A DNA stretch of 64,000 nt from a virus. Taxonomy: Duplodnaviria; Heunggongvirae; Uroviricota; Caudoviricetes. Each line of letters begins with the position of its first letter. The stretch's first letter is position 1. Of the stretch, positions 3,538-61,477 are shown in pieces. Where the stretch lies: the IMG/VR virus record IMGVR_UViG_3300029828_000006, positions 1 to 64,000 of that record; one strand, given 5' to 3'. Position numbers and translations under genes: made by a program. The notes below the pieces were generated by a model. The model was not told the DNA's origin and ran no database searches. It was given only the letters and a program-made list of their open reading frames with translations.

Positions 3538-3735
3538 ATGGCACGTAGATACAACAAATTGTCCCGTGAAGCGTTAAAGATGCTTCTTGATGGCGTGAGT
3601 CGCCGCGAGGTAAAGCAATACCTGATTGGTAAGCAAATTGGCGCCAGGACCGCTATTGCTGTGTTATGCCGTCAGGAAATGGTTGTGCTTAAACAGAGAA
3701 TGCTTGGTAGCAGACAAAGTGCTTCCAGTATTTGA
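3538..3735 (+). CDS. small basic protein (65 aa), possible DNA-binding
   Basis: ATG just after doc stop; followed by terminator at 3739-3769. Confidence 0.3.
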   Translation: MARRYNKLSREALKMLLDGVSRREVKQYLIGKQIGARTAIAVLCRQEMVVLKQRMLGSRQSASSI

Positions 3736-3738
3736 AAA

Positions 3739-3769
3739 GAAGCCCGCCATACCAAGCGGGCTTTTTGTT
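3739..3769. terminator. bidirectional rho-independent terminator
   Basis: AAGCCCGC-loop-GCGGGCTT stem with T-run; separates convergent doc cluster and 3768..4544. Confidence 0.6.
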
Positions 3770-4544
3770 ATTTCACCTCTTCTGCCGCTGTATCATTGGA
3801 CTGTTCTTCTTTGGCCCGTTCTGCAATCGCCGCACGGCATTTCGCCCTGGCTATAGCGATTGCTTCAGCTCGCACATCGTCTGGAATCGTTGACGTGATA
3901 TACATATCCAGTTCTTCGGCACGGAATACTGTTTGGTCCAGATATTCGCGTAGCATCCAGGTAAATTCGAAATCACACGCGATAATCTCTGCGCTACCTT
4001 CTGCACCATTTGGGAAATGAATAAATGCCTGTTTAGCCAAACCGATAACACGACATGCGGTTGCCAAAACAGCGACAACCAGGTTTACATTTTCACACGC
4101 TACGGGCTGATTAACGCCGGAGATTACTCCATTTAACTGTCGGTTATATGGAAGGTAGTTTGAGATGCGTTCTACGCGCCATGTGCCAGTCAGGCTGCCA
4201 TTTTTAAAGATAATTGGTGTAACGGATAGCCCAAGCTCGCGTATAAGTCGTTGCGCTATAGCAGGATCATTAAACAGGTCTAATGCTACACATTCGAAAG
4301 ACTGCGCAAGGGCAAACAGTTCTTCCAGAGAGTAGTCTTTGCCCCTGGCGGTGATGTAACGACGAACGCCGCTGTCCGCATCACTCCATATAGCTACGCC
4401 ATGCTCTTCATTCAGTTCTTCATTAAAGCCGAGATACGTCATGATAGTGCGTTCAATCGTGTCAAACGGCAGTGACATGTCGGCGTTAACATCCACCAGC
4501 AGACCATTACGCAAGCGGTATTGAATTGCTTTAGTATTTTCCAC
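3768..4544 (-). CDS. hypothetical protein (258 aa)
   Basis: Last gene of operon downstream of cre; no domain recognised. Confidence 0.5.
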   Translation of the reverse strand: MENTKAIQYRLRNGLLVDVNADMSLPFDTIERTIMTYLGFNEELNEEHGVAIWSDADSGVRRYITARGKDYSLEELFALAQSFECVALDLFNDPAIAQRLIRELGLSVTPIIFKNGSLTGTWRVERISNYLPYNRQLNGVISGVNQPVACENVNLVVAVLATACRVIGLAKQAFIHFPNGAEGSAEIIACDFEFTWMLREYLDQTVFRAEELDMYITSTIPDDVRAEAIAIARAKCRAAIAERAKEEQSNDTAAEEVK

Positions 4545-4550
4545 GTTAAA

Positions 4551-5213
4551 TCACTCCACTACAAACCAGTCACATGCCAGTAAGTCGCCTACAGAAGGAA
4601 CCCACGGAACAACTACACCTTGTGCATTTTTTAAGGCGAAATAAGCACCATACGGAACGAGGTCGCCGGGGAAATATCCCTTAATGGCTTCCATTCGTGC
4701 CGGGTACTGTCCTTCAGGAACCAGCCAGCAGAATTGGTTTTCACCGTTCCACCCGCGTCGAGCAACTTTCTTTCCTTCCTTCAGCCACATCAGCGCGTCA
4801 GAAAAGTCGGCTGCTTCAAGGTCGATTTCTTCTTGCTGGGTGGTGATGCCACCAGCAGAAATAGTTACGCTTCCGGAAATATTAATGTTCACGCCGTTGT
4901 CATCCGTAATGATGACCGTGGTCCCATTTTCGGAGGTGTCGTTAACCCGGCTATAGCATTTTTCAAATGCTTTCTCTGGCACATAGACCGGATAGCCATT
5001 TTCAGCAGTGACGAGATATCCTCCTATTTGCGGTCGGAATCTTTCCAAGAACACACCATCAACACGAAGCGTCATTCCTTTTGGCTCAACGACTTCGATA
5101 CTGCCCAAAATGGGCGCATCAGTTTCGCCGACAATAACAATATCTTTGATTTTCGATGCCCGAATGATGCTGTGGCTTTTGTATTTGGGGAACACCTGAA
5201 AAGTGCTAGCCAT
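4551..5213 (-). CDS. two-domain protein with C-terminal DUF2829 (Tad2-like) domain
   Basis: C-terminal FSDALMWLKEGKKVARRGWNG...VVPWVPSVGDLLACDWFVVE matches recalled DUF2829 signature. Confidence 0.5.
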   Translation of the reverse strand: MASTFQVFPKYKSHSIIRASKIKDIVIVGETDAPILGSIEVVEPKGMTLRVDGVFLERFRPQIGGYLVTAENGYPVYVPEKAFEKCYSRVNDTSENGTTVIITDDNGVNINISGSVTISAGGITTQQEEIDLEAADFSDALMWLKEGKKVARRGWNGENQFCWLVPEGQYPARMEAIKGYFPGDLVPYGAYFALKNAQGVVVPWVPSVGDLLACDWFVVE

Positions 5214-6536: not shown

Positions 6537-6592
6537 AGCACCCTCCTAAATAGGCGAGGGTACTTTACAGCAAAGACGTTAATCTAAAAAGA

Positions 6593-6608
6593 TGTGTTAG
6601 AAATTTAA
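6593..6608 (+). promoter_or_regulatory. conserved 16-bp motif TGTGTTAGAAATTTAA (candidate operator)
   Basis: Family consensus T(A/G)TGTTAGAAA(A/T)(C/T)TAA; at cre 3' end upstream of 6192..6536. Confidence 0.4.
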
Positions 6609-12467: not shown

Positions 12468-12860
12468 CTACCAGCGAGACAAACGAACAACATGTTTCAC
12501 TTTTGCGATCCACTGTCCGCGATAACTATTGATTACGGCCTGTGCCAGCTTCAAATTGGCTTCAAAATCAGCCTTACTACCATCAGACTCCACCAGCATT
12601 CCTCCATCTATTTCTGGTAAACATAGATAATCCTGCTCAACCTGCAGCGGCATTGATGGCTCTCTGAATGGGGTTACTTGCTCTGCTTTCCAGCGAAATC
12701 TAACCCTTATCCCCCTGGTGGTCATTACTAGATAGCCTGTTATAGTGCTTTTATGGCCCACATCAGTACGCGTGGCATTGCATGACACGATCTTACAGTT
12801 AGCGATAGACCACTCCATATTGGTGGCCTGTTGAGTGCTTAATTTGGTAGTCCCGTACAT
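12468..12860 (-). CDS. hypothetical protein (130 aa)
   Basis: Coupled to upstream gene; no domain recognised. Confidence 0.45.
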   Translation of the reverse strand: MYGTTKLSTQQATNMEWSIANCKIVSCNATRTDVGHKSTITGYLVMTTRGIRVRFRWKAEQVTPFREPSMPLQVEQDYLCLPEIDGGMLVESDGSKADFEANLKLAQAVINSYRGQWIAKVKHVVRLSRW

Positions 12861-13435
12861 CAGAAAGCCTCCCAGTCAGTCGCGATAATATCCACACCAG
12901 TTGCAAACCAGTCTGTCTGCGCCTGTAAATCACCATTCATCATTACCAGGCGAGGCATCACCATCACATCGCACCCTTCCACAATATCGAATGCCTCTTC
13001 CGGCAAGAATTCGAAGAGCTTTTCTTTGCTGCCAATGCTGCCACGGAACATCGATATATAGCTCCCTTTAGGCCATGATGTCCGCCGGGCATCAAGCCCT
13101 TTCATCATCCAGTAAAAAGCCGAGGAAAAAGGGATATTCTTTTTGCCAATGATTACATTATTCGCTTCTGTGTACTTCAGGAACTTAACTAACCTTACCA
13201 TTGACTCGGATAACGCAACGTATGGCTCATGATTGATTGCTGACACGCTTACACCGTGCAATCCAACGCTTACCACTGTCATATCGCCGCTCTGTGCGGT
13301 TTCGATATTGACGCCTTTGCGAACTAATGAGGCGTAAAGTTCCTCTCGCTTTTGGGTCCAGCGTTCCCGCTTCCCTATGAAGTCACTCAAAATGAGATCT
13401 TCTTCTGCATATGCGTTATCGTTCGCCATTAACAT
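12860..13435 (-). CDS. protein with C-terminal DUF2829-like domain (191 aa)
   Basis: AFYWMMKGLDARRTSW ... DIIATDWEAF matches DUF2829 pattern. Confidence 0.4.
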   Translation of the reverse strand: MLMANDNAYAEEDLILSDFIGKRERWTQKREELYASLVRKGVNIETAQSGDMTVVSVGLHGVSVSAINHEPYVALSESMVRLVKFLKYTEANNVIIGKKNIPFSSAFYWMMKGLDARRTSWPKGSYISMFRGSIGSKEKLFEFLPEEAFDIVEGCDVMVMPRLVMMNGDLQAQTDWFATGVDIIATDWEAF

Positions 13436-13657
13436 AACGTCTCCTTTTTACACGCGCGACCATCTCTCGGTTAAACCGATAGAGATGTCGAAACTTCGTA
13501 TTAATTAAGGGTTACAGCCTGAGCGGCTATATGATGAATTGAAAGGAGTTGTGGCGGTGGTGCCTCCACCTGCCAGGTCAGCCACGCCCGGCGACGACAC
13601 TTATCAGAACCTCAATGAATGAAAATGGCTTCGTCACGAGCGCATAGCCGCAATTAC

Positions 13658-13705
13658 CACAACGGAAACGGCGCTCGCGTTAATTAAACGCCTTTTCCTG
13701 TTGTG
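13658..13705. repeat. hairpin of the conserved-leader family
   Basis: CACAACGGAAA / TTTCCTGTTGTG stem preceded by GCATAGCCGCAATTACCACAACGG leader. Confidence 0.4.
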
Positions 13706-13889
13706 CGCCGTACTCTTCCGGCTGTCACACCGAATCGCCAGGATGGTGAGTCCTCGGTCCGACGATATGAACGGGGCTTGCACATTCCGGCTACCTGGTT
13801 TGTTGCCTGAGCTAGGGGAAAAGGTAACCCCTTTAACGTCACCAGACCGCTAACGACGCATGTGCCAGACGCCGTGTTACAACCAAATA

Positions 13890-13965
13890 TGGTGGCCCCT
13901 ACCGGACTTGAACCGGTGACCGTGCGATTATGAGTCGCCAGCTCTAACCACTGAGCTAAGGGGCC
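13890..13965 (-). tRNA. tRNA-Ile2 (anticodon CAU, lysidine type)
   Basis: 76 nt with CCA; near-identical to recalled E. coli ileX; anticodon loop CTCATAA. Confidence 0.9.
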
Positions 13966-13974
13966 AATTAGTTT

Positions 13975-14088
13975 TTATTTTCGACGCCTGAGATTCTTCG
14001 CTACTTGTTCTACTCCGTATACGATCACAAGCAGAAATAGCAAAGACCATCCAGGGTTCTTATCAATATACGTCCAAAAATCCATCAT
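13975..14088 (-). CDS. small membrane peptide (37 aa), TciC-position
   Basis: ATGATGG start overlaps upstream stop; one hydrophobic helix; below track cut-off. Confidence 0.3.
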   Translation of the reverse strand: MMDFWTYIDKNPGWSLLFLLVIVYGVEQVAKNLRRRK

Positions 14089-14249
14089 GAGTTCCTGAAC
14101 GCAGCTTTAATAATCGGCAATAGCAATACCACAGCTACTGAAACCAGTGCCCCATCAGCCAACACCGACATCACTTTGCTGGTGAAATCCACCAGCACGG
14201 ACAAAACGAGAAAACCAATGGCGCACGCAATACGCGCCTTGCCAATCAT
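14085..14249 (-). CDS. small membrane protein (54 aa), TciB-position
   Basis: Start overlaps tciA stop; two hydrophobic segments. Confidence 0.3.
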   Translation of the reverse strand: MIGKARIACAIGFLVLSVLVDFTSKVMSVLADGALVSVAVVLLLPIIKAAFRNS

Positions 14250-14683
14250 TACAGATAATCTTCCACACGAAGGCCCAAACGACGGCCTACTTCTTCCAGT
14301 ACTTTGTGTTCTGCTGGCTCGATTTCACCGTCCGCTTCTGCAATCGTCAGCATGTTAACGAATACTTCTTCCGCTTCTTTTGGATCATTTTTGATATCTT
14401 CAATTTCGCGAAGGATATTCATGCGACCAACACGGAAACCAGCTTCCAGTTGCTCAGTAAAACGGGTGATTGTTGCGGTAATTTCGTTGCCAAAATGACT
14501 TAAGCGAGGATTAGAGCGGACAAGCTGATCAAGTTTCGCTGTTTCTTCCTTTTCGATTTCACCATCTGCGGCAGACACCAACAAACAGCCACCGATAATG
14601 GCCTCCATCAGATCGCGATTCTCAACCCTTTTCAGCTCTACTTTTGCTGAAGCGACTTTCTTACCGAAAAATTTACCGAACAT
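14249..14683 (-). CDS. tciA: TerB-like protein (TciA-like)
   Basis: 144 aa with paired acidic helical repeats typical of the TerB fold. Confidence 0.6.
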   Translation of the reverse strand: MFGKFFGKKVASAKVELKRVENRDLMEAIIGGCLLVSAADGEIEKEETAKLDQLVRSNPRLSHFGNEITATITRFTEQLEAGFRVGRMNILREIEDIKNDPKEAEEVFVNMLTIAEADGEIEPAEHKVLEEVGRRLGLRVEDYL

Positions 14684-14950
14684 TGGTTATCCCTCAATAA
14701 ACATGACGTATTTATTAGGTTGCGGTGCCTGGTGCCTCCAGGTGACGTTAACCAGTTAACAATTAACGCCGGGATGTTTGACTTAACCACTAAGGAGGAT
14801 TGTTTTAACTGTTCCGCGTGCGCATAGCCGCATTCACCGCAATGGTAAGAGCACTTGGCTGGCTGGGCGGCGATGACGCCTGTACGCATTTGGTGATCCG
14901 GTTCTGCTTCCGGCATTCGCTTAATTAGCCAAATACTCTTAACGTTGCAC

Positions 14951-15037
14951 TGGCGGAGAGTAATGGAATCGAACCATCATCGCTTGCGCAATGGGACGGT
15001 TTTCAAGACCGTTTGAGCACCATGCTCCCTACTCTCC
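14951..15037 (-). tRNA. tRNA-Ser (anticodon UGA)
   Basis: 87 nt type II tRNA; acceptor GGAGAGT/ACTCTCC, anticodon loop CTTGAAA, long variable arm, CCA. Confidence 0.8.
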
Positions 15038-15139
15038 AGTGATTGTGATGGTCGGTGCTGAACTCCGACACAGGGTTGTAGCAAGCCCCGCAAAGCGCGC
15101 ACTACTGTAGTTGCGGCACATCAGCCTGTGCATTCACCA

Positions 15140-15229
15140 CAATGTTGAGAACACTGGTTGTCACGCTGCAACGCAACATTTATTCGTAGATTGGGATATG
15201 ACCCCGTTACGCCAGTGTTCTCAACGTTG
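15140..15229. repeat. long-stem hairpin (18-bp stem, 54-nt loop)
   Basis: CAATGTTGAGAACACTGG ... CCAGTGTTCTCAACGTTG, one wobble; preceded by conserved leader. Confidence 0.5.
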
Positions 15230-15370
15230 TAGTGCCGGTTACGGTTCCGGCCAGGCCTCTTCCTCAACGGGGTGTTCTCCATACGGACTACCGTTTATTG
15301 GTCGTTCCTGCGGTTTATGTTGTGAAGCCAGATGCTTATCTTCTGGTTGCTTCAAAGAGCTGCACTTCAT

Positions 15371-15438
15371 CACAACGGTAAGAGCACTCGATGCATTTAA
15401 GCCAAGCCCCATAAGGGAGAATGCCCTTACCTGTTGTG
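15371..15438. repeat. imperfect long-stem hairpin, same family
   Basis: CACAACGGTAAG ... CTTACCTGTTGTG; shares leader and GCTTGGC with next unit. Confidence 0.45.
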
Positions 15439-15566
15439 TTGTGATGACCGGTGCTGATCTCCGGCTTGCGGTTATTTCAGACTCTCACGGGCGTTTATTT
15501 GCCCCGCCGAACAGCTCTTTTCCGCAATAGCTGCAATGTCTTTCGCGCATCAGCCTGCGCATTCAT

Positions 15567-15653
15567 CACAACGGTAAGGGTACTTCGTAGGGATTCGAAC
15601 CCTCTGCCAAGCACGGCGATCTCCGACGTCGCAAAATACCCTTACCTGTTGTG
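15567..15653 (-). ncRNA. tRNA-like element lacking a D-arm
   Basis: Minus strand has canonical T-arm AGGG-TTCGAAT-CCCT and a 4-bp/9-nt hairpin inside a 16-bp stem; abuts tRNA-Thr. Confidence 0.4.
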
Positions 15654-15654
15654 T

Positions 15655-15730
15655 TGGTGCCGGTTAACGGACTCGAACCGCTGACATCCTGCTTACAAGG
15701 CAGGCGCTCTACCAACTGAGCTAAACCGGC
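15655..15730 (-). tRNA. tRNA-Thr (anticodon UGU)
   Basis: 76 nt; acceptor GCCGGTT/AACCGGC, anticodon loop CTTGTAA, CCA. Confidence 0.9.
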
Positions 15731-15734
15731 AATT

Positions 15735-15821
15735 TGGTGGGGAGTGATGGAGTCGAACCACCCGAGTCGCAATGACAGTAGATTTACAGTCTACCCCGCT
15801 ACCCCTACGGACTAACTCCCC
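15735..15821 (-). tRNA. tRNA-Tyr (anticodon GUA)
   Basis: 87 nt type II; anticodon arm AGACTGTAAATCT as in E. coli tRNA-Tyr; CCA. Confidence 0.85.
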
Positions 15822-15826
15822 TGAAT

Positions 15827-15903
15827 TGGCGATGGTGGGTGGATTCGAACCACCGACCGACAGCTTAGAAGGCTGCTGCTCTATCCTACTGAGCTACACC
15901 ACC
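15827..15903 (-). tRNA. tRNA-Arg (anticodon UCU)
   Basis: 77 nt; anticodon loop CTTCTAA; CCA. Confidence 0.85.
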
Positions 15904-16094
15904 ACTGTGCCGGGTACGTCTCCGGCGAGGGCTTCCACCTCCGTATGCTTTTCGGCGCACCGCGCCCTGGCTGCAATTCAGTAACAGGGGATGCATAACC
16001 CTGGCTTCCAGCGTGATTAGCGCCTTCAGCATGACGGGATATACCCGTAACCAACAAACTTTCCCATATACCATCAAGCAATGGCTGTTACGCG

Positions 16095-16190
16095 GGAGGG
16101 ACGTAACAGGTAAGGGCGCTGACCAGAAAGACCTGACCCTTCTCATTCATCTGGTTAATCACACCAGCGCCCTTGCCTGTTATGCCTCCC
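16095..16190 (+). repeat. long hairpin (17-bp stem, GGGAGG/CCTCCC extension)
   Basis: AACAGGTAAGGGCGCTG ... CAGCGCCCTTGCCTGTT; shares ACAGGTAAGGG start with minus-strand units. Confidence 0.5.
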
Positions 16191-16408
16191 CGTTCCCTAA
16201 TACACAGACGGGGACACTCTGCGGTCGATTTTTTGACGGGGGACGACTCATACCCCGTGGCGTCAGGCTTCTTAGGCCGCTACCATCATCAGATCATCGT
16301 TTGCATTTACTTTAATGGTCGGGTTCTAAACCGCCGCAAAGTCGCTAACCATGACGAAAACCCTAAAAAAGCCCACCCGAAGATGGGCAAATACGCTACA
16401 TCTCACAC

Positions 16409-16485
16409 AAGAAAGAAGCCGACTGCCTGAGCTGGATTCACTTTCAAATGCCCGCTGAAAGGGATCACAAGTCGGCTTCTTTCTT
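16409..16485. repeat. perfect 16-bp stem hairpin with 45-nt loop
   Basis: AAGAAAGAAGCCGACT ... AGTCGGCTTCTTTCTT. Confidence 0.5.
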
Positions 16486-16702
16486 GATGCGGCACTCTCT
16501 CCGCCCGTCACCGCTCTGTCTCGGTTGTCGCGTTTGCCACGCCAGCCATAACGAGGTTTAAAGTCTTTTCACGTTCCCATCACTCGACTGCCGTCTGTGG
16601 CTGTTCGTTGCAGCGGGGGTGCCTCCCCCTGGGGATATCCCCGGCCTTACCCCATTCTTTCAAGACACAATGCAAGGCCACATCCGCATAGGTGCATTAC
16701 CG

Positions 16703-16767
16703 CAACATTAAGGAGACTCAGGGCAAAAGGTAACCGCCACAAAAATCCCTATGCCTCCTTAATGTTG
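16703..16767. repeat. perfect 13-bp stem hairpin with 39-nt loop
   Basis: CAACATTAAGGAG ... CTCCTTAATGTTG with leader-like GCATTACCGCAA before it. Confidence 0.5.
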
Positions 16768-16966
16768 AAGATGTGCATTGATGATTAGATGCAGCATGTA
16801 CCGTTACTCTCTGCCGGACCATCATCAATGAACACCTTAAAAAGACCTTCCGTGGCTCAACATGTATTGTCGTTTACTCCGCAAAGTGCTCTCTCTGAAA
16901 CCACTTTCCGCACTAAACCTGTTGAACTTTGGTCTGCTCGGTGCCAAAGCGTGCTCTTGGTTTACT

Positions 16967-16982
16967 ATACTTTTCTAACACT
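16967..16982 (-). promoter_or_regulatory. motif variant (rc GTGTTAGAAAAGTATA)
   Basis: In non-coding region; partial match. Confidence 0.25.
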
Positions 16983-16994
16983 TTAATTTGTTAA

Positions 16995-17070
16995 TTGCTG
17001 GTGGGCAAACAATAACCAATAAGTGACTATCAAGCCCAGCAAGCGAAACGTGGGTACCGCCCACCAGCAA
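16995..17070. repeat. perfect 12-bp stem hairpin with 52-nt loop
   Basis: TTGCTGGTGGGC ... GCCCACCAGCAA. Confidence 0.45.
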
Positions 17071-17122
17071 GGAAAATTCTATGTTAAGTCATCTTCACAA
17101 TCAATACATTCGAATTGTGATT

Positions 17123-17138
17123 TTAGATTTCTAACACA
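17123..17138 (-). promoter_or_regulatory. conserved motif (rc TGTGTTAGAAATCTAA)
   Basis: Immediately beyond the 3' end of 17139..18362. Confidence 0.4.
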
Positions 17139-18362
17139 TTATTTCCCATAAAGATCTTCTACACCCCCATTCTTCTTATCCCATTCGTTCGCCCATACCC
17201 GGCAAGCGTCAATGATTTCCTGACGACGATCTCCTTGCATGAACGGAATGCTTTCATGGAAACAGCTTGGAATGCAGGCCACACTGAATACAGTATCAAA
17301 CTCCGTCTGCTTGATTGCCTCCAGCGTCTCCGGACGCATTTTTAATTCATCGATTGGCGCATCCTTAGAGTCCATAATCCGGCGATATAAGCGCGGAAAA
17401 TCCGTCTCCAGGTACGCCATAATTTTATCTGCGAGACATTCGTCTATGTCGGTATTCCAGTCCTTTTCGAAGCCCGGCAGGCGATAGTAAAGCGGCGTTC
17501 CCCATACCGATGGGATCACATCCATCGTTAACAGGCGATTAGTTCTGATTTGTTGATGGTAATTAGCCGTCAGCAGTGCTTCGCCACGCTGCCCAGTTTC
17601 CGCAACCAGGCCGTGCGGATACTCATGGATGTAGGCAATGGCATCCCTTCCATCATACATAAGTGGAAATGTCTCTGGTCTTTGTCCCATGCCACAAGCA
17701 CGGTTCAGATCGTGACCAAGCTGTGAGCACTCTCGCTTTAATGTTTCGATAATGCTCTGCGCTGTAGCCAACTTTTTACGCAGTGTGACGCCTTCGCCTT
17801 GATAATCAATGCATTGCTGATTGAGCTTGGTTAAACGCTCTTTTAGTTCCCGGCGCTCTCTTTTCAGCGTGCGGTTATCCTTCTCCGCAACATCCAGCCG
17901 CTTTGTCAGGCTGGGCGGATAGTCTTTTTTGTAACGGTTCAAATCGGCTTCGGCAGATTTACGCAGTGTATTTGCCTGTTCAAGACGCGCTTCCAGATTG
18001 CCGATCTCATTACGCATATTCGCGGCAAATTGATTAACTGCATCGCCCAGGCTTTCAACTGTCGCTGATACGCCTGTGACTTGTGAAAAACGGATCAAGC
18101 CATCATTAACGGCTTGTTGGTATTCCTCAAACTGATCCACCAGCTTATTGTAATCAACTGCCCCATCATCAAGCAGCTTGTTGATTTCCGCCACCAGGTT
18201 ATCTGTAGTGGCAATGACACTCTCGTGCAGTCGCTTTGACAGGTCATCTCCCGGATTCCGTTTCTGTATAAGAGCGATTTGTGTGCGCAGCGTTTCAATT
18301 GCTGTCGAGATAATTTCCAGATTAGAAGTATCAGTGTGTTGACTCATTGCTGTTCCCGTCAC
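17139..18362 (-). CDS. hypothetical coiled-coil protein (407 aa)
   Basis: ATG with GGGA RBS; N-terminal 200 aa heptad-rich, C-terminal globular domain unrecognised; motif at both ends. Confidence 0.55.
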   Translation of the reverse strand: MTGTAMSQHTDTSNLEIISTAIETLRTQIALIQKRNPGDDLSKRLHESVIATTDNLVAEINKLLDDGAVDYNKLVDQFEEYQQAVNDGLIRFSQVTGVSATVESLGDAVNQFAANMRNEIGNLEARLEQANTLRKSAEADLNRYKKDYPPSLTKRLDVAEKDNRTLKRERRELKERLTKLNQQCIDYQGEGVTLRKKLATAQSIIETLKRECSQLGHDLNRACGMGQRPETFPLMYDGRDAIAYIHEYPHGLVAETGQRGEALLTANYHQQIRTNRLLTMDVIPSVWGTPLYYRLPGFEKDWNTDIDECLADKIMAYLETDFPRLYRRIMDSKDAPIDELKMRPETLEAIKQTEFDTVFSVACIPSCFHESIPFMQGDRRQEIIDACRVWANEWDKKNGGVEDLYGK

Positions 18363-18372
18363 TTTGTTAAAT

Positions 18373-18388
18373 TAGTTTTCTAACATAT
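18373..18388 (-). promoter_or_regulatory. conserved motif (rc TATGTTAGAAAACTAA)
   Basis: 26 nt upstream of the 17139..18362 start codon. Confidence 0.45.
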
Positions 18389-18971: not shown

Positions 18972-19466
18972 TTAATCAAGACAAACATACTCCGTGATAG
19001 CTTTTATGGCTTCAGCGGCACTGCGCGCCTCAAAGCAGTAGTAACCGGCTTCAGTGAGGCGGGTCATCCAGACGAGTTGTTCGGGAGTCAGGCGATTTCT
19101 CCCATGTTTCATCTCAATGCGCATTCCGTGGTATCCCCCACAAGCAAGGTCTATAGAAAGATCGGGATATCCCTTCTTTTGGCCCTCTGCCACCATTTTT
19201 ATTGCCGTCCTTATGCCTCGCAGGCCACCGTTTGGAGTGGCGTGAGTATGCTCATACACATAACGCATATTGCGATACAACCAGTCCAGGACGCGAACCT
19301 GCTCGTAATGCTCATGGTTCCTTTTGATTAGATCTGGGTTTTTCTCCAGTTCTCTAAGAGCTGCGGCATGTGGGGATGTTTCAGAATATTCACTGCGACG
19401 CCTTCTCTTTCGCGCTATTTTTCTAACACACCCATTGATGGTAAATATGCGAAATAATAACAACAA
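18972..19466 (-). CDS. VRR-NUC domain nuclease (true start probably internal)
   Basis: KGYPDLSIDLACGGYHGMRIEMK matches PD-(D/E)xK VRR-NUC core; conserved motif lies inside the first 20 codons. Confidence 0.5.
   Translation of the reverse strand: MLLLFRIFTINGCVRKIARKRRRRSEYSETSPHAAALRELEKNPDLIKRNHEHYEQVRVLDWLYRNMRYVYEHTHATPNGGLRGIRTAIKMVAEGQKKGYPDLSIDLACGGYHGMRIEMKHGRNRLTPEQLVWMTRLTEAGYYCFEARSAAEAIKAITEYVCLD
19415..19430 (-). promoter_or_regulatory. conserved motif (rc TGTGTTAGAAAAATA)
   Basis: Inside the annotated N-terminus of the VRR-NUC ORF, implying a later true start. Confidence 0.35.
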
Positions 19467-28043: not shown

Positions 28044-28747
28044 TCACCTCCCCAACCGATCACCTGGAATTGCCCCATTTTGGGGTGATACCAGCGTTTT
28101 CCTCGGTGTTCAGCCTCCGACATCATCCGGTTAAAAGCATTCATGAAGGGAGATAAGGCCACGATTGAACGACGCGACAATACCCCCTCTGGAGTTAAAA
28201 ACTCATGCGTATCTGTGGGGATCCGGTAAGCGTTGACCAGGTTGCGGCATTTGGCTTCGGTCAGGCCGCATTTTGCCGCCAGCTGGCGGTAGCCAATGTA
28301 ACCTTCCGGCATGTTGCCCTTCTTGATTTGCTCGACGGTTTCTACCACTTGGCTAACCTTTGACTCAACAACATGAAGCCGCTTTTGCTGCTGAACTGCA
28401 TTTGCAGCCATTGCGGCGATCATCTCTATTTCGGTCAACGGCTGGCGTGCTTGTTCTTCCAGTTCGCGCCAGCGGTCCACCAGCCGGGCGGTGAATTCGG
28501 GAGAGAGCTGCGCAACGACAATAATGCTGTCTCGTTTGCCTTGCTCGCCTTCGAAGACGTAAGCCTCGACACTACGGCGTAGTCCTAAGTTATTGATTTT
28601 TTCGAAAACCTGCAATGCAGGAAGTTGAATAACTCCAGATTTAGCCAGGCGCTCTATTGATATTTTTACGTTATCTGGACGACTTCCCACCAGCTCCGCG
28701 ATCTCAATGCTGGTCATTGATGGCTTTTCAAGAATGCAGATATCCAT
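28040..28747 (-). CDS. Rha-family phage regulatory protein / antirepressor-like
   Basis: N-terminal MTSIEIAELVGSRPDNVKISIERL typical of Rha/antirepressor DNA-binding domain. Confidence 0.55.
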   Translation of the reverse strand: MDICILEKPSMTSIEIAELVGSRPDNVKISIERLAKSGVIQLPALQVFEKINNLGLRRSVEAYVFEGEQGKRDSIIVVAQLSPEFTARLVDRWRELEEQARQPLTEIEMIAAMAANAVQQQKRLHVVESKVSQVVETVEQIKKGNMPEGYIGYRQLAAKCGLTEAKCRNLVNAYRIPTDTHEFLTPEGVLSRRSIVALSPFMNAFNRMMSEAEHRGKRWYHPKMGQFQVIGWGGE

Positions 28748-28974: not shown

Positions 28975-29316
28975 TACGGCCTCACTAACAGGTTTAACAA
29001 CCTGCTACCCGCTGTCAAACAGGTGGCAGGACGTGACAGGGTTGACAGACTGGCGTTAGTGAAACCAGCAGGCCGAAGCCTCCCCATCACGCCCCACCAT
29101 AATTCGGGCGTAACGCGGTTTACGGACACAAAAATACCGCAATATCGGAAATCTGCGGTTGTCCGCACTAACATTCAGGCTGTCAAACCTGGTCGCAGAA
29201 TTTGCTACGACGGCATGAATATAAGCCTGAAAACATGGAAGATCAACTAAAAATTTCAGCAATGGATGACTTCAGTCGATGATGCAGATCATACATTCCG
29301 ATTTAGAAACAGCAAA
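28975..29316 (-). promoter_or_regulatory. structured leader with complementary 8-10 nt elements (candidate antisense-RNA control region)
   Basis: GCTGTCAAAC at 29011 and 29179 and its complement GTTGACAG at 29041, downstream of operator-like motif. Confidence 0.25.
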
Positions 29317-29332
29317 TTAATTTTCTAACACA
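29317..29332 (-). promoter_or_regulatory. conserved motif (rc TGTGTTAGAAAATTAA)
   Basis: Head of the leader preceding the small-ORF/Rha-like operon. Confidence 0.45.
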
Positions 29333-29384
29333 GATTATCGAGCGAGCATTTTCCGATCATTGGGATGTTTTGTAGACACACAGG

Positions 29385-39174: not shown

Positions 39175-40776
39175 TTGAGTACGGCTAACACATGGAGTGC
39201 GCGCCAGACTTTCAACGGCGGGATCACCGGGGCGCTGACAGGGAACGCCGACACCGCGACGAAATTAAAAACAGCCATAAACATTAATGGCGTCAGATTC
39301 GATGGTTCGGCTGACATTAATATCAATACTCTGGTATCGCGTGGTCGCGTAACGGCTCTGGGGGCGAATGCACAGGGGACATCCGGGATTCAGCTGTATG
39401 AGGCATACAACAATGGCTACCCTTCCCCCTATGGCAATGTGCTTCACCTTAAAGGTGCCACCGCTGCTGGCGAAGGTGAGTTATTCATTGGCTGGAGTGG
39501 CACGAGTGGTGACCATGCGCCCGTACATATCCGTTCGCGGCGGGATACTGATTCTGCTAACTGGTCTGAATGGGCGCAGGTCTATACGTCAAAAGATTCC
39601 GTTCCCGGCGTTAATGCCAAAGGGAATCAGGACACCTCTGGTAATGCGGCTACAGCGACCAAGTTGCAGACAGCATGTACTATCAACGGTGTCTCGTTTG
39701 ATGGTTCTAAAAATATTGAGCTAACGGCGGAAGATTTAAATCTACAGGAAACGGTAAACAAGGCTGATAACGCGGTTCAAAAGACAGGCGATACCTTGTC
39801 CGGTGGACTTACTTTTGAAAACGACTCAATCCTTGCCTGGATTCGGAATACTGACTGGGCGAAGATTGGTTTTAAAAATGATGCCGACAGCGATACTGAT
39901 TCATACATGTGGTTTGAAACAGGCGACAACGGCAATGAATATTTCAAATGGAGAAGTCGCCAGAGCACCACAACAAAAGACCTGATGAATCTTAAATGGG
40001 ATGCTTTGTCTGTCCTTGTTAAAGCCCTTTTCAGCAGTGAAGTAAAAATATCGACAGTCAATGCACTAAGGATATTTAATTCATCTTTTGGTGCTATTTT
40101 TCGTCGTTCTGAAGAATGCCTGCATATCATCCCTACACGAGAGAATGAGGGGGAAAATGGTGATATAGGGCCACTACGTCCCTTTACACTTAATCTCAGA
40201 ACTGGCCGTATAACTATGGGGCATGGTCTGGATGTTACAGGAGATATAACAACTAACGCCTGGGTGTATGCAAACAGGTTTGCTATTAACAGCAGTAATG
40301 GTATGTGGATTCAGATGCGCGATAACAACGCTATCTTTGGGAAAAATATAGTTAACACTGATAGCGCCCAGGCATTGCTACGTCAGGACCATGCTGATCG
40401 CAAATTTATGATTGGTGGTCTGGGGAATAAGCAATTTGGCATCTACATGATTAATAATTCAAGGACAGCCAATGGTACCGATGGTCAGGCGTACATGGAT
40501 AATAACGGGAACTGGCTTTGCGGCTCGCAAGTTATTCCCGGCAACTATGGCAATTTTGACTCCAGATATGTGAAAGATGTTCGACTTGGTTCACAGCAAT
40601 ATTATGGAGTGAACAACTGGCAAACATGGAATTTCCAGTGCCCTTCAGGTCATGTATTGTCTGGTATTAATGTTCAGGATACAGGTTCCAACTCTGCCGA
40701 TAATATAGCGGGCGTTTATTACAGGCCCGTTCAAAAGTTTATAAATGGCACCTGGTATAATGTAGCGAGCGTTTAA
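39175..40776 (+). CDS. silent alternative tail-fibre variable segment Sv'
   Basis: No ATG (track start is TTG); N-terminus identical to S residues after cix; expressed only after inversion. Confidence 0.6.
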
Positions 40777-44800: not shown

Positions 44801-44872
44801 AACATCAGCAAGCAACGGCTGTGAAACACCAGAGGATAGTGTCATTATGTTGTTCGTTTTATCAGCCCCCAT
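41870..44872 (-). CDS. S: tail fibre protein S (constant part + Sv)
   Basis: About 1000 aa; ATG at 44872 with GAGGG RBS (track start is upstream TTG); collar repeats; cix inside. Confidence 0.8.
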   Translation of the reverse strand: MGADKTNNIMTLSSGVSQPLLADVQYFELYSSSALNRKLKNIVLPGFYCGFEPVPGTGLSVRVTSENSEGKGAASVDVNNVQISVQQIEDVTVSVKAGATNIIVLEANFEHGVKTTQVDSASSVSAARIYARTDNTIGQNQIELCRVIVPSGATAVTKEMIVLKYRVNRAVGVEFSNEISSTEERKAATPLAVKTLHDLVDTKAPLDSPHLSGTPTSPTPEPGTNNTQIANAAFVYAAINALINGAPGTMDTLKEIAAAINNDPKFSETINNALALKAPLASPAFTGTPTAPTASQGTNSTQIANTAFVKAAITTLINGAPSTLDTLKEIAAAINNDPNFSTTINNALALKAPLASPALTGVPTAPTAAQGTNNTQIATTAYVRAAISALVGSSPEALDTLNELAAALGNDPNFATTMTNALAGKQPLDATLTALAALATGANKLPYFTGKDTVAQTDLTSVGRDILAKTSTLAVIQYLGLRELGTSGEKIPLLSTANTWSARQTFNGGITGALTGNADTATKLKTAININGVRFDGSTNISIPTITSRGRVTALTGTTQGAATGLQMYEAYNNGYPTTYGNVLHLKGAASTGEGELLIGWSGTNGAHAPAFIRSKRDSTAAAWSEWAQIYTSKDSVPGVNAKGDQDTSGNAATATKLQTACTINGVSFDGSKNIELTAEDLNLEQTVELAAGSLQKNQNGADIPGKDTFTKNIGACRAYSSWLNIGGDSQVWTTAQFISWLESQGAFNHPYWMCKGSWAYANNKVITDTGCGNICLAGAVVEVIGTRGAMTIRVTTPSTSSGGGITNAQFTYINHGDAYAPGWRRDYNTKNQQPAFALGQTGSTVGNDKAVGWNWNSGVYNANIGGASTLILHFNMNTGSCPAVQFRVNYRNGGIFYRSARDGYGFEADWSEFYTTTRKPSARDVGAYTQAECNSRFITGIRLGGLSSVQTWNGPGWSDRSGYVVTGSVNGNRDELIDTTQARPIQYCINGTWYNAGSI
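43424..43449. other. cix crossover site within S
   Basis: TTCTCTTAAACC-AA-GGTATTGGATAA, inverted relative to 39119-39144. Confidence 0.7.
43560..44240. repeat. three tandem 225-bp repeats encoding 75-aa collar repeats
   Basis: Recurring INNALALKAPLASPAFTGTPTAPT blocks in S constant region. Confidence 0.7.
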
Positions 44873-61448: not shown

Positions 61449-61464
61449 TTAGTTTTCTAACACA
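61449..61464 (-). promoter_or_regulatory. conserved motif (rc TGTGTTAGAAAACTAA)
   Basis: Between divergent major-head candidate (start 61319) and 61478 gene. Confidence 0.45.
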
Positions 61465-61477
61465 AATTATTAGAGTT

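What the first reader, a model, noticed from the sequence alone, without database searches (positions are those of the whole stretch)
13890..15903. Expanded tRNA set (Ile-CAU, Ser-UGA, Thr-UGU, Tyr-GUA, Arg-UCU)
P1 is recalled to carry three tRNAs (Asn, Thr, Ile); here five are present, tightly packed on one strand. Phage tRNA arrays can offset codon bias or replace host tRNAs cut by anticodon nucleases, so this could be an anti-defence set.
Basis: partly seen in the sequence, partly recalled or inferred. Interest (0 to 1): 0.55.

Follow-up and report, generated by a model that had tools for sequence, protein, structure and literature searches.

The report
Five tRNA genes in P1-like phage
A P1/D6-like plasmid-prophage of E. 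coli carries five real tRNA genes in one early operon; four decode exactly the codons the phage over-uses and the host reads poorly, so this is mostly an ordinary codon-supply set and shows no clear sign of being an anti-defence set.

Summary
Five tRNA genes lie on the minus strand at exactly the stated coordinates: Arg-UCU, Tyr-GUA, Thr-UGU, Ser-UGA and a CAU tRNA that is Ile2 (ileX-like), not Met. The window is a D6/P1-like phage-plasmid. Identical arrays are already annotated in RefSeq plasmids, and the Arg allele is in the minority.

P1 relatives carry a variable set. The first slot holds Asn or Arg, Tyr and Ser may be present or absent, and Thr and Ile2 are nearly constant.

Codon usage explains four of the five. 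The five codons most enriched in the window relative to E. coli K-12 are AGG, AGA, AUA, ACA and UCA, which are exactly those read by Arg, Ile2, Thr and Ser. UCA is the least secure of these. Tyr codons are not enriched.

The anti-defence reading finds little support. All five anticodon loops are identical to the host's, and the Thr tRNA lacks the published P2-OLD resistance signature. Tyr remains a candidate, because supplying tRNA-Tyr rescues T5-like phages from retron-Eco7.

Side findings:
- The Arg gene is an Asn gene with a swapped D loop and anticodon arm.
- The Ser tRNA fits the known phage "8/4" type.
- The tRNAs are interleaved with a repeated structured RNA module.
- A Tad2-like gene lies downstream.

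The parts
17076..17104 (-). Sigma-70-like promoter (TTGATT-17-TAGAAT) upstream of the whole operon
   Evidence: Consensus scan, 9 of 12 matches. Promoter function is inferred, not shown.
17128..17139 (-). Operator-like motif ATGTGTTAGAAA; a second copy lies at 16972-16983. Candidate binding site for the D6-type C1 repressor.
   Evidence: The motif AWGTGTTAGAAA occurs 8 times in the window against 0.71 expected, and 0 of 100 shuffles reach 8. Two copies flank the promoter and one lies next to the c4 RNA. The P1-type operator ATTGCTCTAATAAATTT is absent. The role is inferred.
16605..16735 (-). Structured module M0, the first copy of the repeated module
   Evidence: nhmmer hit to the module core; RNAfold gives the same closed multi-helix architecture as Ma and Md.
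16371..16486 (-). A perfect 17-bp hairpin (16408-16486) followed by an intrinsic terminator (16371-16388). This is the position of P1's annotated 'dicF-like region'.
   Evidence: (I4). The terminator and the sequence downstream of it are conserved in P1, D6 and Ro157. No Rfam DicF match was found.
16085..16205 (-). Long hairpin Mf, of the H1 type (AACAGGCAAGGGCGCTG...CAGCGCCCTTACCTGTT)
   Evidence: (I2).
15827..15903 (-). tRNA-Arg(UCU), a chimera of the resident tRNA-Asn gene
   Evidence: ARAGORN; Rfam 70 bits. It shares the leader, the acceptor stem (apart from position 2), the T arm and the CCA with the 75-nt Asn allele of Ro157-type phages. It differs only at position 2, in the D loop and in the anticodon arm.
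15735..15821 (-). tRNA-Tyr(GUA), class II with a long variable arm
   Evidence: ARAGORN; Rfam 41.9 bits. It is identical in all 8 P1-like loci that carry it and differs at only a few positions from the Tyr tRNA of rV5-like phage phita32 (by eye; identity not computed).
15655..15730 (-). tRNA-Thr(UGU)
   Evidence: ARAGORN; Rfam 74.9 bits. Present in most P1-like loci surveyed.
15038..15656 (-). Three tandem structured modules: Ma 15438-15656, Mb 15316-15449, Mc 15038-15245. Each is a long hairpin followed by a closed multi-helix domain.
   Evidence: Direct and inverted repeats; fold z-score -5.7; module folds; nhmmer.
14951..15037 (-). tRNA-Ser(UGA), non-canonical: compact D arm and a possible 8/4 acceptor/T-stem arrangement
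   Evidence: ARAGORN; best Rfam match is tRNA-Sec at 45.1 bits. In the 7-sequence alignment with phage homologues, 11 of 26 pairs show compensatory changes, and RNAalifold predicts an 8-bp acceptor stem with a 4-bp T stem. PGAP calls it tRNA-Ser.
14716..14950 (-). Module Md. It ends about 36 nt before the tciA start codon and has a sub-threshold match to Rfam STnc100.
   Evidence: STnc100 at 40.1 bits against a gathering score of 47, E = 1.9e-6; folds.
14249..14683 (-). tciA, a TerB-domain protein
   Evidence: Pfam TerB, E = 2e-14; phrog_632.
14085..14249 (-). tciB, a DUF3927 small membrane protein
   Evidence: Pfam DUF3927, E = 1.6e-18.
13890..13965 (-). tRNA-Ile2 (CAU, presumably read through lysidine)
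   Evidence: ARAGORN calls it 'Met'; 69/76 identical to ileX against 56/77 to metT. P1 annotates its counterpart as trnI. PGAP calls it tRNA-Ile.
13538..13712 (-). Module Me, upstream of orf6
12860..13435 (-). orf6, a protein with a Tad2-like (Thoeris anti-defence 2-like) domain, next gene downstream on the same strand
   Evidence: Pfam PF11195 at 39.1 bits against a cut-off of 25. PGAP names it 'Thoeris anti-defense Tad2 family protein' in a near-identical plasmid.

Best explanation
The five genes are functional tRNAs carried in an early operon of a D6/P1-like phage-plasmid. The operon is probably controlled by the phage repressor. Its order on the minus strand is promoter, leader, Arg-Tyr-Thr, structured RNA modules, Ser, tciA-tciB, Ile2, then a Tad2-like gene, orf5, lpa and pacA.

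Their main job is codon supply. The phage genome is more AT-rich than its host (47% versus 52% GC) and uses AGA/AGG, AUA, ACA and UCA 2.6 to 8 times more often than E. coli genes do. In E. coli each of these codons depends on a minor tRNA encoded by one or two genes (argU, ileX/ileY, thrU, serT). Transcribing extra copies before late genes are switched on by Lpa would relieve that bottleneck, particularly for tail-fibre, baseplate and injection proteins, which are rich in these codons.

Shown here: the tRNAs are real and conserved; the match between the tRNA set and the codon excess; and the gene order. Inferred: repressor-controlled early transcription (by analogy with the P1 ban operon and from an over-represented operator-like motif), processing of the transcript, aminoacylation, and any benefit to burst size. 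The Tyr tRNA is not explained by this model.
For: - Codon match. 63-67 window ORFs (about 18,000 codons) were compared with 42 annotated K-12 genes (14,748 codons). The five most enriched codons are AGG (7.3-8.0x), AGA (5.3-5.5x), AUA (4.9-5.0x), ACA (3.3x) and UCA (2.6x). These are the codons read by Arg-UCU, Ile2, Thr-UGU and Ser-UGA.
- The chance that 4 of the 5 cognate codons fall in the top 5 of 61 is 4.7e-5.
- When genes are resampled, AGA, AGG and AUA stay in the top 5 in 100% of bootstraps, ACA in 95% and UCA in 50%.
- Together the five codons make up 56 per 1000 in the window against 14.9 per 1000 in the host sample.
- Genes for the most abundant virion proteins avoid them: the likely major head protein has 14.6 per 1000, the tube-like protein 24.7 and the sheath 38.1. 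Tail fibres, the baseplate protein and the injection protein have 76-104 per 1000.
- The virulent, unrelated rV5-like coliphages carry the same five specificities plus Pro.
- All five anticodon loops are identical to the host's, as expected for plain decoders.
- The array shares its leader, terminator and gene order with the P1 ban operon, which the P1 and P7 records annotate as C1-controlled.
- The Asn-to-Arg swap puts a tRNA for the two most over-represented codons where one for the 8th-ranked codon (AAU, 1.9x) had been.
Against: - Tyr codons are not enriched (UAU 1.28x, rank 20; UAC 1.01x, rank 34) and E. coli has three tyr genes, so one of the five tRNAs is unexplained.
- UCA is only marginally ahead of CGA, for which no tRNA is carried.
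- D6 is 96.7% identical over the aligned 90% of the 3-kb array region and manages with Asn instead of Arg. P1 manages without Ser, Tyr or Arg. Any benefit must therefore be modest.
- The host reference is a 50-kb sample of K-12, not the actual host strain.
- Enrichment of A-ending codons partly reflects base composition.
- No expression, charging or fitness data exist here.
Confidence: 0.65

Rival explanations
1. Anti-defence set. The tRNAs replace host tRNAs destroyed by tRNA-cleaving immune systems or toxins. Candidates are retron-Eco7 PtuAB for Tyr, P2-OLD for Thr-UGU, colicin D for Arg, and colicin E5 for Tyr and Asn. Slots would be swapped as the defences met by the phage change.
For: - Tyr has no codon-usage rationale.
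- Phage tRNA-Tyr, and even over-expressed host tRNA-Tyr, rescues T5-like phages from retron-Eco7 (PMC11555353).
- A screen of 245 coliphage tRNAs recovered Tyr-GUA against PtuAB and Thr-UGU against P2-OLD (PMC12445682).
- The window Tyr differs from host tyrU in the anticodon arm only by C28-G42 to U28-A42, which removes the host's CNG motif.
- The set is polymorphic among close relatives: Asn or Arg, with or without Tyr, with or without Ser.
- A Ro157-type Thr allele does carry the OLD-resistance signature.
- A Tad2-like anti-Thoeris gene lies in the same transcription unit.
Against: - All five anticodon loops are identical to the host isoacceptors, so the loop-mutation signature proposed for nuclease-resistant phage tRNAs (PMC10264068) is absent.
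- The window Thr keeps C28-U29-G30 and C40-A41-G42 and a full 5-bp stem. Resistance to P2-OLD needs both features changed, and extra host-type thrU does not rescue (PMC12445682).
- The window Arg stem gains a CNG motif that host argU lacks.
- No tRNA-Lys is present.
- Four of the five specificities are the classic rare-codon tRNAs, and they track the phage's own codon excess.
Confidence: 0.2
2. Largely neutral cargo. The tRNA genes are passengers picked up by recombination in a hyper-variable accessory region and are kept without much selective effect.
For: - Presence or absence varies among phages that are otherwise very similar.
- The array lies in a mosaic region whose breakpoints coincide with repeated modules.
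- Similar Tyr and Ser genes occur in rV5-like phages, which suggests horizontal exchange.
Against: - Sequences are strongly conserved: Tyr is identical in 8 of 8 loci, and there are few Ile2 and Thr alleles.
- Substitutions are compensatory in Ser homologues across very distant phages.
- The chimeric Arg retains the Arg identity elements.
- The specificities match the codon excess far better than chance.
Confidence: 0.1
3. Lysogenic conversion. The plasmid prophage expresses the rare-codon tRNAs in the lysogen and so helps the host translate AT-rich horizontally acquired genes, much like a natural 'CodonPlus' plasmid.
For: The set overlaps the argU and ileX/ileY tRNAs that limit expression of AT-rich genes in E. 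coli (general knowledge). P1-like plasmids are present in 741 of 5426 complete E. coli genomes.
Against: The homologous P1 operon is annotated as repressed by C1 in lysogens. The window has operator-like motifs flanking the putative promoter. No internal promoter was found between the terminator and the tRNAs.
Confidence: 0.05

Closest known systems
tRNA genes of the bacteriophage P1 ban operon (trnA-Asn, trnT-Thr, trnI-Ile; NC_005856), and the 4-tRNA versions in P7 and D6
   Same: - Same leader and terminator, and a near-identical Thr gene: the window allele differs from the commonest P1-like allele by one base (C for U in the 3' acceptor strand).
- The Ile2 gene is the second-commonest allele (16 of 48 copies), one base from the commonest.
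- Same tciA-tciB genes and same repeated modules.
- The region is 92-97% identical where alignable.
   Different: - The Asn slot holds an Arg-UCU gene, and a Tyr gene is inserted between it and Thr.
- Ser is present, as in P7 and D6 but not P1.
- The operon runs into orf6-orf5-lpa-pacA, as in D6, instead of ban.
- The P1-type C1 operator is absent.
tRNA array of rV5-like (Vequintavirus-type) coliphages such as phita32
   Same: It carries Arg-UCU, Tyr-GUA, Ser-UGA, Thr-UGU and CAU tRNAs in one cluster. Its Ser is about 89% identical to the window's. Its Tyr differs at only a few positions by eye (not computed).
   Different: The rV5-like phages are virulent, about 139 kb and unrelated in the rest of the genome. 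They also carry Pro and an odd 99-nt tRNA-like gene. The gene order differs, and there are no tciAB genes and no repeated modules.
Rare-codon tRNAs of Stx-converting lambdoid phages (ileZ, argN, argO) and the codon-compensation model for phage tRNAs (Bailly-Bechet et al. 2007, as cited in PMC10264068)
   Same: Ile2-CAU and Arg-UCU tRNAs are supplied by a temperate coliphage whose genes are rich in AUA and AGA/AGG (my own knowledge for the Stx phages; Stx phages appear among the hits).
   Different: The genomic context differs: a late region downstream of Q in Stx phages, an early accessory operon here. The window adds Thr, Ser and Tyr.
Nuclease-evading phage tRNAs: T5 tRNA-Lys against PARIS, T5/SP15 tRNA-Tyr against retron-Eco7, phage tRNA-Thr(UGU) against P2-OLD
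   Same: The same isoacceptors, Tyr-GUA and Thr-UGU, are carried by a coliphage (PMC11555353, PMC12445682).
   Different: The published resistance features are not present in the window Thr. All anticodon loops equal the host's. No tRNA-Lys is carried. Nothing was tested functionally.
(8/4) tRNA-Ser / allo-tRNA group (Mukai et al. 2017, PMC5389517)
   Same: - Long variable arm, G73 and a Ser anticodon.
- A compact D arm.
- A 12-bp acceptor/T branch that can be drawn as 8+4.
- The best covariance-model match is tRNA-Sec.
- The group was reported from bacteriophages.
   Different: The pairs that decide between 8/4 and 7/5 (A8-U, C46-G64) are invariant in the 7 homologues compared, so the fold cannot be proven here. 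The D stem is 4 bp, shorter than in typical allo-tRNAs.

Membership tests
Bacterial tRNA genes | Cloverleaf detected by independent tRNA finders | tested here: met
   ARAGORN detects 5 of 5. Rfam RF00005 detects 4 of 5 above its gathering score. Ser is detected only by ARAGORN and, sub-threshold, by the tRNA-Sec model. PGAP annotates all five in a near-identical plasmid.
Bacterial tRNA genes | Structure kept by compensatory changes in homologues; enterobacterial-style encoded 3' CCA | tested here: met
   All five end in CCA. In the alignment of Ser homologues, 11 of 26 pairs show double changes. Few alleles exist across 48 P1-like loci.
tRNA-Ile2 (lysidine-dependent, ileX/ileY type) | CAU anticodon on an Ile2-type body rather than a Met body | tested here: met
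   69/76 identical to ileX against 56/77 to metT/metU. The acceptor stem (GGCCCCT/AGGGGCC, which includes C4-G69 and C5-G68) and the anticodon loop are identical to ileX; the anticodon stem differs at one position.
tRNA-Ile2 (lysidine-dependent, ileX/ileY type) | C34 converted to lysidine by TilS; charged with Ile; reads AUA | not testable with these tools
   Needs mass spectrometry and aminoacylation assays.
(8/4) tRNA-Ser / allo-tRNA (PMC5389517) | 8-bp acceptor stem plus 4-bp T stem | tested here: inconclusive
   RNAalifold on 7 phage homologues predicts 8/4. However, the deciding pairs A8-U and C46-G64 never vary, so a 7/5 fold with a G49.U65 wobble is not excluded.
(8/4) tRNA-Ser / allo-tRNA (PMC5389517) | Long variable arm, G73 discriminator, serine anticodon, tRNA-Sec-like compact D arm | tested here: met
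   The variable arm is CAUUGC-GCAA-GCGAUG, with G73 and anticodon UGA. The D stem is 4 bp with a 4-6 nt loop and shows covariation (GAGC/GCUC, GGGC/GCCC, GCUC/GAGC, GCUA/UAGC). The tRNA-Sec model is the best Rfam match.
Nuclease-resistant anti-defence phage tRNAs | Anticodon-loop substitutions relative to the host isoacceptor (criterion of PMC10264068) | tested here: not met
   All five 7-nt loops are identical to ileX, serT, thrU, tyrU and argU.
Nuclease-resistant anti-defence phage tRNAs | For Thr-UGU against P2-OLD: altered CNG motif in the anticodon stem plus loss of the 27-43 pair (PMC12445682) | tested here: not met
   The window stem CCUGC/GCAGG keeps CUG and CAG and has 5 pairs. A rare Ro157-type allele does meet the criterion.
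Nuclease-resistant anti-defence phage tRNAs | Rescue of infection in a host expressing the cognate tRNA nuclease | not testable with these tools
   Requires plating assays on hosts with retron-Eco7, P2 Old, PARIS, HepS or colicins.
P1 ban-operon tRNA cluster | Shared leader and terminator, Thr gene, tciA-tciB, terminal Ile2 gene | tested here: met
   Alignments with P1, P7, D6 and Ro157 and the annotations.
P1 ban-operon tRNA cluster | C1 operator at the promoter and ban downstream | tested here: not met
   No P1-type operator within 3 mismatches anywhere in the window. Downstream genes are orf6-orf5-lpa-pacA, as in D6. A different over-represented motif may be the D6-type operator, but this is inferred.
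Rfam STnc100 (RF02076) for the repeated modules | Covariance-model score at or above the gathering threshold | tested here: not met
   Only module Md matches, at 40.1 bits against 47 and over part of the model (31-147 of 206). No gathering-level match in P1, Ro157 or the lambdoid TerB loci.

The most novel reading that the evidence does not exclude
The early operon is a modular accessory and counter-defence island. Its cargo includes tRNA genes, TerB/TciAB, Tad2-like and other small genes. Each cargo unit is preceded by a copy of a conserved structured module, which acts both as an RNA processing or expression signal and as the recombination joint for exchanging cargo between phages. In this reading the tRNA slots (Asn or Arg, with or without Tyr, with or without Ser, and alternative Thr alleles) turn over in response to tRNA-cleaving host defences such as retron-Eco7 PtuAB and OLD-family nucleases, and not only in response to codon demand.
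Probability: 0.15. Interest if true: 0.55.

Novelty: new member of a known kind. Interest (0 to 1): 0.25.

Why it matters
The result matters modestly. It gives a clean case in a temperate phage where the tRNA repertoire tracks the phage's own codon excess almost codon for codon. That is useful as a control against the current tendency to read every phage tRNA as anti-defence.

It also gives small, testable leads:
- A naturally occurring Asn-to-Arg conversion of a tRNA gene, made by swapping only the D loop and anticodon arm.
- A Tyr tRNA with no codon rationale, which could be tested against retron-Eco7.
- A polymorphic Thr allele that carries the published OLD-resistance signature.
- A repeated structured RNA module that marks the mosaic joints of an accessory-gene hot spot, in a phage family found in about 14% of complete E. 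coli genomes.

Tried and rejected
- **P1 C1 operator.** A search for ATTGCTCTAATAAATTT with up to 3 mismatches found 0 hits in the window, so P1-type repressor control cannot be claimed directly.
- **DicF.** The permissive Rfam scan of 13300-17200 gave no DicF match, and the gathering-level scan of the P1 locus gave none either. P1's 'dicF-like' label is therefore not confirmed for either phage.
- **STnc100 in relatives.** No gathering-level STnc100 hit was found in three further P1-like loci or eight TerB loci from other prophages and bacterial genomes. The link between the modules and that family rests on one sub-threshold match.
- **TerB-anchored survey outside P1-like elements.** Among 38 IMG/VR loci and 9 genome loci, tRNAs were found near tciA homologues in only one distant locus (L098, Paracoccus MAG, 53% identity; Ile-GAU, Arg-UCU, Cys). 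The tRNAs are not part of a TerB module.
- **Donor of the Arg patch.** The best phage hits are generic Arg-UCU tRNAs at 85-90% over the central part. No isolated phage in the collection carries this Arg gene at 95% or more. The donor remains unidentified.
- **Covariance model of the module.** MAFFT could not align the variable interiors, so no model was built. An nhmmer profile of the 48-nt core was used instead.
- **boxA/nut reading of the module core.** The similarity to TGCTCTTA was considered and set aside. That sequence is the paired 3' arm of a long hairpin and it covaries with its partner.
- **Integron attC reading.** The GTTGYG...CRCAAC termini were considered as attC-like. This was not pursued because they fit the attC consensus poorly and I saw no integron integrase among the ORFs I scanned; the window was not searched for one systematically.
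- **PDB sequence search for orf6 and its C-terminal domain.** Only chance matches to malate dehydrogenase were returned. The Tad2-like call rests on Pfam and PGAP.
- **Literature not available.** The P1 genome paper (PMC523184) is not held. The supplement listing the 245 library tRNAs of PMC12445682 is not held. One literature search returned only mitochondrial genome papers.


Full report
**What the window is**

The window carries the C4 antisense RNA and its targets at 29019-29224. The 3-kb stretch around the finding is 100% identical to several E. coli plasmids of 87-94 kb. It is 96.7% identical, over 90% of its length, to phage D6, and 92-93% identical in the alignable parts to P1 and P7. 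It is therefore a D6/P1-like phage-plasmid.

**The observation**

ARAGORN finds exactly five tRNA genes in the 64 kb.
- CAU, 13890-13965
- Ser-UGA, 14951-15037
- Thr-UGU, 15655-15730
- Tyr-GUA, 15735-15821
- Arg-UCU, 15827-15903

The Rfam tRNA model confirms four of them at 42-75 bits. The Ser gene scores best against the tRNA-Sec model, at 45.1 bits, just under that family's threshold of 47. The D6 record notes that tRNAscan-SE could not name its amino acid. Even so, PGAP annotates all five (Arg, Tyr, Thr, Ser, Ile) in a near-identical RefSeq plasmid.

The CAU tRNA is 69/76 identical to E. coli ileX, with the same acceptor stem and the same anticodon loop; the anticodon stem differs at one position. 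It is only 56/77 identical to metT. All five genes encode CCA.

Only Arg, Tyr and Thr are tightly packed, with 4-5 nt spacers. Ser lies 617 nt downstream. Ile2 follows after tciA (TerB domain) and tciB (DUF3927).

**How the set compares with relatives**

| Phage or locus type | tRNA set (in transcription order) | Source |
|---|---|---|
| P1 | Asn, Thr, Ile2 | |
| P7, D6 | Asn, Thr, Ser, Ile2 | |
| Ro157c2YLVW | Asn, Tyr, Thr, Ile2 | |

I also surveyed 48 P1-like sources: the window, four reference phages, one plasmid and 42 IMG/VR loci anchored on TciA.

| Array | Number of sources |
|---|---|
| Asn-Thr-Ile2 | 24 |
| Asn-Thr-Ser-Ile2 | 7 |
| Asn-Tyr-Thr-Ile2 | 5 |
| Arg-Tyr-Thr-Ser-Ile2 (the window, an identical plasmid and L014) | 3 |
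| Truncated or partial | 9 |

In PLSDB, 949 plasmids match the Thr-Tyr-Arg block. Of these, 242 cover at least 80% of it, 45 are at least 99% identical and 46 are 95-99% identical.

In RefSeq complete E. coli genomes, 741 of 5426 carry a match. Of the matching records, 19 are at least 99% identical and 41 are 95-99% identical. A Thr plus Arg variant without Tyr also exists.

No isolated phage in the phage collection carries this Arg gene at 95% identity or more. The five-tRNA allele is a minority, already sequenced and auto-annotated variant of a known polymorphic locus.

**Codon usage**

I compared 67 non-overlapping long ORFs of the window (17,966 codons) with 42 annotated K-12 genes (14,748 codons). 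The comparison was repeated after removing four spurious ORFs that lie in the non-coding tRNA region.

| Codon | Enrichment, window over host | Read by |
|---|---|---|
| AGG | 7.3-8.0x | Arg-UCU |
| AGA | 5.3-5.5x | Arg-UCU |
| AUA | 4.9-5.0x | Ile2 |
| ACA | 3.3x | Thr-UGU |
| UCA | 2.6x | Ser-UGA |

These are the five most enriched codons, in this order, and they are exactly the codons read by four of the five tRNAs. The chance of four of five cognate codons falling in the top five of 61 is 4.7e-5.

Resampling genes keeps AGA, AGG and AUA in the top five every time, ACA in 95% of bootstraps and UCA in 50%. CGA is UCA's competitor.

Tyr codons are not enriched: UAU is 1.28x at rank 20 and UAC 1.01x at rank 34. 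AAU, which is served by the Asn tRNA of sister phages, ranks 8th at 1.95x.

Together the five target codons are 56 per 1000 in the window against 14.9 per 1000 in the host sample.

| Gene product | Target codons per 1000 |
|---|---|
| Likely major head protein | 14.6 |
| Tube-like protein | 24.7 |
| Tail sheath | 38.1 |
| Tail fibres, baseplate and injection proteins | 76-104 |

This pattern is what translational selection would produce.

By established knowledge, argU, ileX/ileY, thrU and serT are minor, low-copy tRNAs in E. coli. The virulent rV5-like coliphages carry the same five specificities plus Pro.

**Tests of the anti-defence reading**

- The signature proposed for nuclease-resistant phage tRNAs is an anticodon-loop substitution relative to the host (PMC10264068). 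All five loops here are identical to the host's.
- P2-OLD cleaves host thrU at a CNG pseudo-palindrome in the anticodon stem. Phage Thr-UGU tRNAs rescue only when that motif is altered and the stem is also shortened, and extra thrU does not rescue (PMC12445682). The window Thr (CCUGC/GCAGG) keeps both CNG triplets and all five pairs, so it fails this test. A rare Ro157-type allele (G27.A43, UCG/CGA) passes it.
- The window Arg stem contains a CNG motif that host argU lacks.
- There is no tRNA-Lys, the target of PARIS (read here in PMC11464382) and, by my own knowledge, of PrrC.
- Tyr is the exception. It has no codon rationale. Its anticodon arm differs from host tyrU only by a compensated C28-G42 to U28-A42 change that removes the CNG motif. 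Extra tRNA-Tyr supply, even of the host type, rescues T5-like phages from retron-Eco7 PtuAB (PMC11555353).
- Context is mildly supportive. The next gene downstream, orf6, has a Tad2-like domain (39.1 bits).

None of this shows that the set is anti-defence.

**Anatomy of the operon**

A sigma-70-like promoter lies at 17104-17076. It is flanked by two copies of AWGTGTTAGAAA. That motif occurs 8 times in the window against 0.7 expected, and one copy lies next to c4. The P1 operator sequence is absent, so I infer that this motif is the D6-type C1 operator.

A perfect 17-bp hairpin and an intrinsic terminator (16486-16371) follow. This terminator is conserved in P1, where the region is annotated as 'dicF-like'. 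Rfam's DicF model does not match it.

The P1 and P7 records describe the homologous operon as C1-controlled. In the window the operon continues into lpa, the late-promoter activator, which fits early expression ahead of late protein synthesis. That timing is an inference.

**The Arg gene is a chimera**

The leader, positions 1 and 3-15, and the last 32 nt (T arm, 3' acceptor strand and CCA) are identical to the 75-nt Asn allele that occupies this slot next to Tyr in Ro157-type phages. The differences are confined to position 2 (A to G, giving G2.U71), the D loop (which gains GGAUA, as in argU) and the anticodon arm.

By general knowledge, ArgRS identity rests on A20, C35 and U36, and AsnRS identity rests on the anticodon and G73. 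The patch should therefore switch the tRNA from Asn to Arg. The donor could not be identified.

**The Ser tRNA**

Homologues occur in rV5-like, T5-like and T4-like Klebsiella phages, in a Pseudomonas phage and in a Streptomyces phage. In a 7-sequence alignment, 11 of 26 pairs show compensatory changes. RNAalifold predicts an 8-bp acceptor stem, a 4-bp T stem, a compact D arm and a long variable arm. This matches the (8/4) tRNA-Ser reported from phages (PMC5389517), but the deciding pairs never vary, so a 7/5 fold is not excluded.

**The repeated module**

The tRNAs and ORFs are interleaved with seven copies or part-copies of a structured element, at 16735-16605, 16205-16085, 15656-15438, 15449-15316, 15245-15038, 14950-14716 and 13712-13538.

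A full copy has two parts. The first is a long hairpin (CACAACAGGUAAGGG...CCCUUACCGUUGUG). The second is a domain closed by GUUGYGRUG...CAYCRCAAC, which contains a small hairpin and a terminal hairpin with an AG..GCA loop.

The helices are kept by different sequences in different copies. The terminal hairpin, for example, is CCGG/CCGG, CCUGG/CCAGG, GGUGG/CCACC or GGGGG/CCCCC. The Thr-to-Ser spacer folds with a z-score of -5.7.

An nhmmer profile of the core finds 6 copies in the window, all in this operon and on this strand. It finds 2-6 copies in almost every P1-like locus surveyed, fewer in truncated loci. It finds none in the lambdoid TerB loci or in the rV5-like phage.

One copy has a sub-threshold match to Rfam STnc100 (40.1 against 47 bits). 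STnc100 is a prophage sRNA family reported near TerB genes (bioRxiv 10.64898/2026.05.13.724894).

Module 3' ends sit 3-4 nt before tRNA-Ser and about 36 nt before tciA. In Ro157 the same position precedes a different ORF. Similarity between window, P1, P7 and Ro157 breaks down right after the module cores. I read the modules as processing or expression signals that also act as recombination joints. This is a hypothesis.

**Verdict**

The finding is real and correctly described, but it is an ordinary kind of thing. It is a phage tRNA cluster whose composition is best explained by codon supply (confidence about 0.65). An anti-defence role is not excluded for Tyr. The array is a minority allele of a known polymorphic locus and is already present in public annotation.

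Noticed in passing
window 15827-15903 (-); compare L003 4867-4941 (-): The tRNA-Arg(UCU) gene is the resident tRNA-Asn(GUU) gene with an internal patch. Its leader, acceptor stem (apart from position 2), T arm and CCA are identical to the 75-nt Asn allele of Ro157-type phages. Only position 2, the D loop (which gains the Arg-type GGAUA) and the anticodon arm differ.
   Followed up: yes
window 13538-16735 (-): 16735-16605, 16205-16085, 15656-15438, 15449-15316, 15245-15038, 14950-14716, 13712-13538: Seven copies or part-copies of a structured module (a long hairpin followed by a closed multi-helix domain) are interleaved with the tRNAs and ORFs. The module is confined to this operon and strand, and 2-6 copies occur in almost every P1-like locus surveyed. 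Its helices are kept by compensatory changes between copies. Mosaic breakpoints between P1, P7, Ro157 and the window fall right after the module cores. One copy is a sub-threshold match to Rfam STnc100.
   Followed up: partly
window 14951-15037 (-); homologues L010 3082-3172, L102 2501-2587, L103-L106: The Ser-UGA tRNA belongs to a phage-borne family with a compact D arm. It can be drawn with an 8-bp acceptor stem and a 4-bp T stem, like the (8/4) tRNA-Ser of Mukai et al. Its best Rfam match is tRNA-Sec. One homologue is annotated as a pseudogene in a T5-like Klebsiella phage.
   Followed up: partly
window 12860-13435 (-) and 4551-5213 (-): Two proteins carry a Pfam Tad2-like (Thoeris anti-defence 2-like, PF11195) C-terminal domain, at 39.1 and 80.5 bits. 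The first is the next gene downstream of tRNA-Ile2 in the same operon, and PGAP names it a Tad2 family protein. No PDB match was found by sequence.
   Followed up: partly
window 16371-16486 (-): A perfect 17-bp hairpin, a single-stranded stretch and an intrinsic terminator lie upstream of the tRNAs. This is an sRNA-like layout at the position of P1's annotated 'dicF-like region'. The terminator is conserved in P1, D6 and Ro157, but the hairpin is D6-type only. No Rfam DicF match was found.
   Followed up: partly
window 6592-6603 (+); 16972-16983, 17128-17139, 18377-18388, 19420-19431, 28339-28350, 29322-29333, 61454-61465 (-): The motif AWGTGTTAGAAA occurs 8 times against 0.7 expected. Copies lie at the promoter of the tRNA operon and next to c4. 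It is a candidate operator for the D6-type C1 repressor. The P1 operator sequence is absent from the window.
   Followed up: partly
L003 4695-4770 (-) (Ro157c2YLVW) and one other P1-like locus: A second Thr-UGU allele (...AGTCGCTTTGTAAGCGAATGG...) has a G27.A43 mismatch and no CNG motif in the anticodon stem. This is the two-part signature reported to make phage tRNA-Thr resistant to P2-OLD. The window's allele lacks it.
   Followed up: partly
L010 2885-2983 (-) (rV5-like phage phita32): A 99-nt tRNA-like gene with a long variable arm and a UUUUUAA anticodon-type loop, which ARAGORN cannot assign. It lies between the Ser and Thr genes of that phage's array.
   Followed up: no
L002 3660-4229 (+) (P1 upl and plp); window 15111-15530 (+): The P1 genes upl and plp are annotated on the strand opposite to the operon, exactly over the repeated-module region. 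The equivalent plus-strand ORF in the window starts with TTG and overlaps strongly structured RNA. These ORFs may not be real genes.
   Followed up: no
window 59622-61274, 56692-57426, 57470-59128 versus 39907-40776, 41870-44872, 46272-47612, 48079-51861: Genes for the most abundant virion proteins (likely major head, tube-like, sheath) use the five tRNA-matched codons at 15-38 per 1000. Tail-fibre, baseplate and injection-protein genes use them at 76-104 per 1000.
   Followed up: partly
L002 about 3700-3790 (-) (P1), aligned with window tRNA-Ser: Where the window has tRNA-Ser, P1 and Ro157 have a segment with patchy similarity to it (CTGAAATAAGTCC; TGGTGCGGCCCGATCACCCGCCG). This could be a decayed Ser gene or an alignment artefact.
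   Followed up: no
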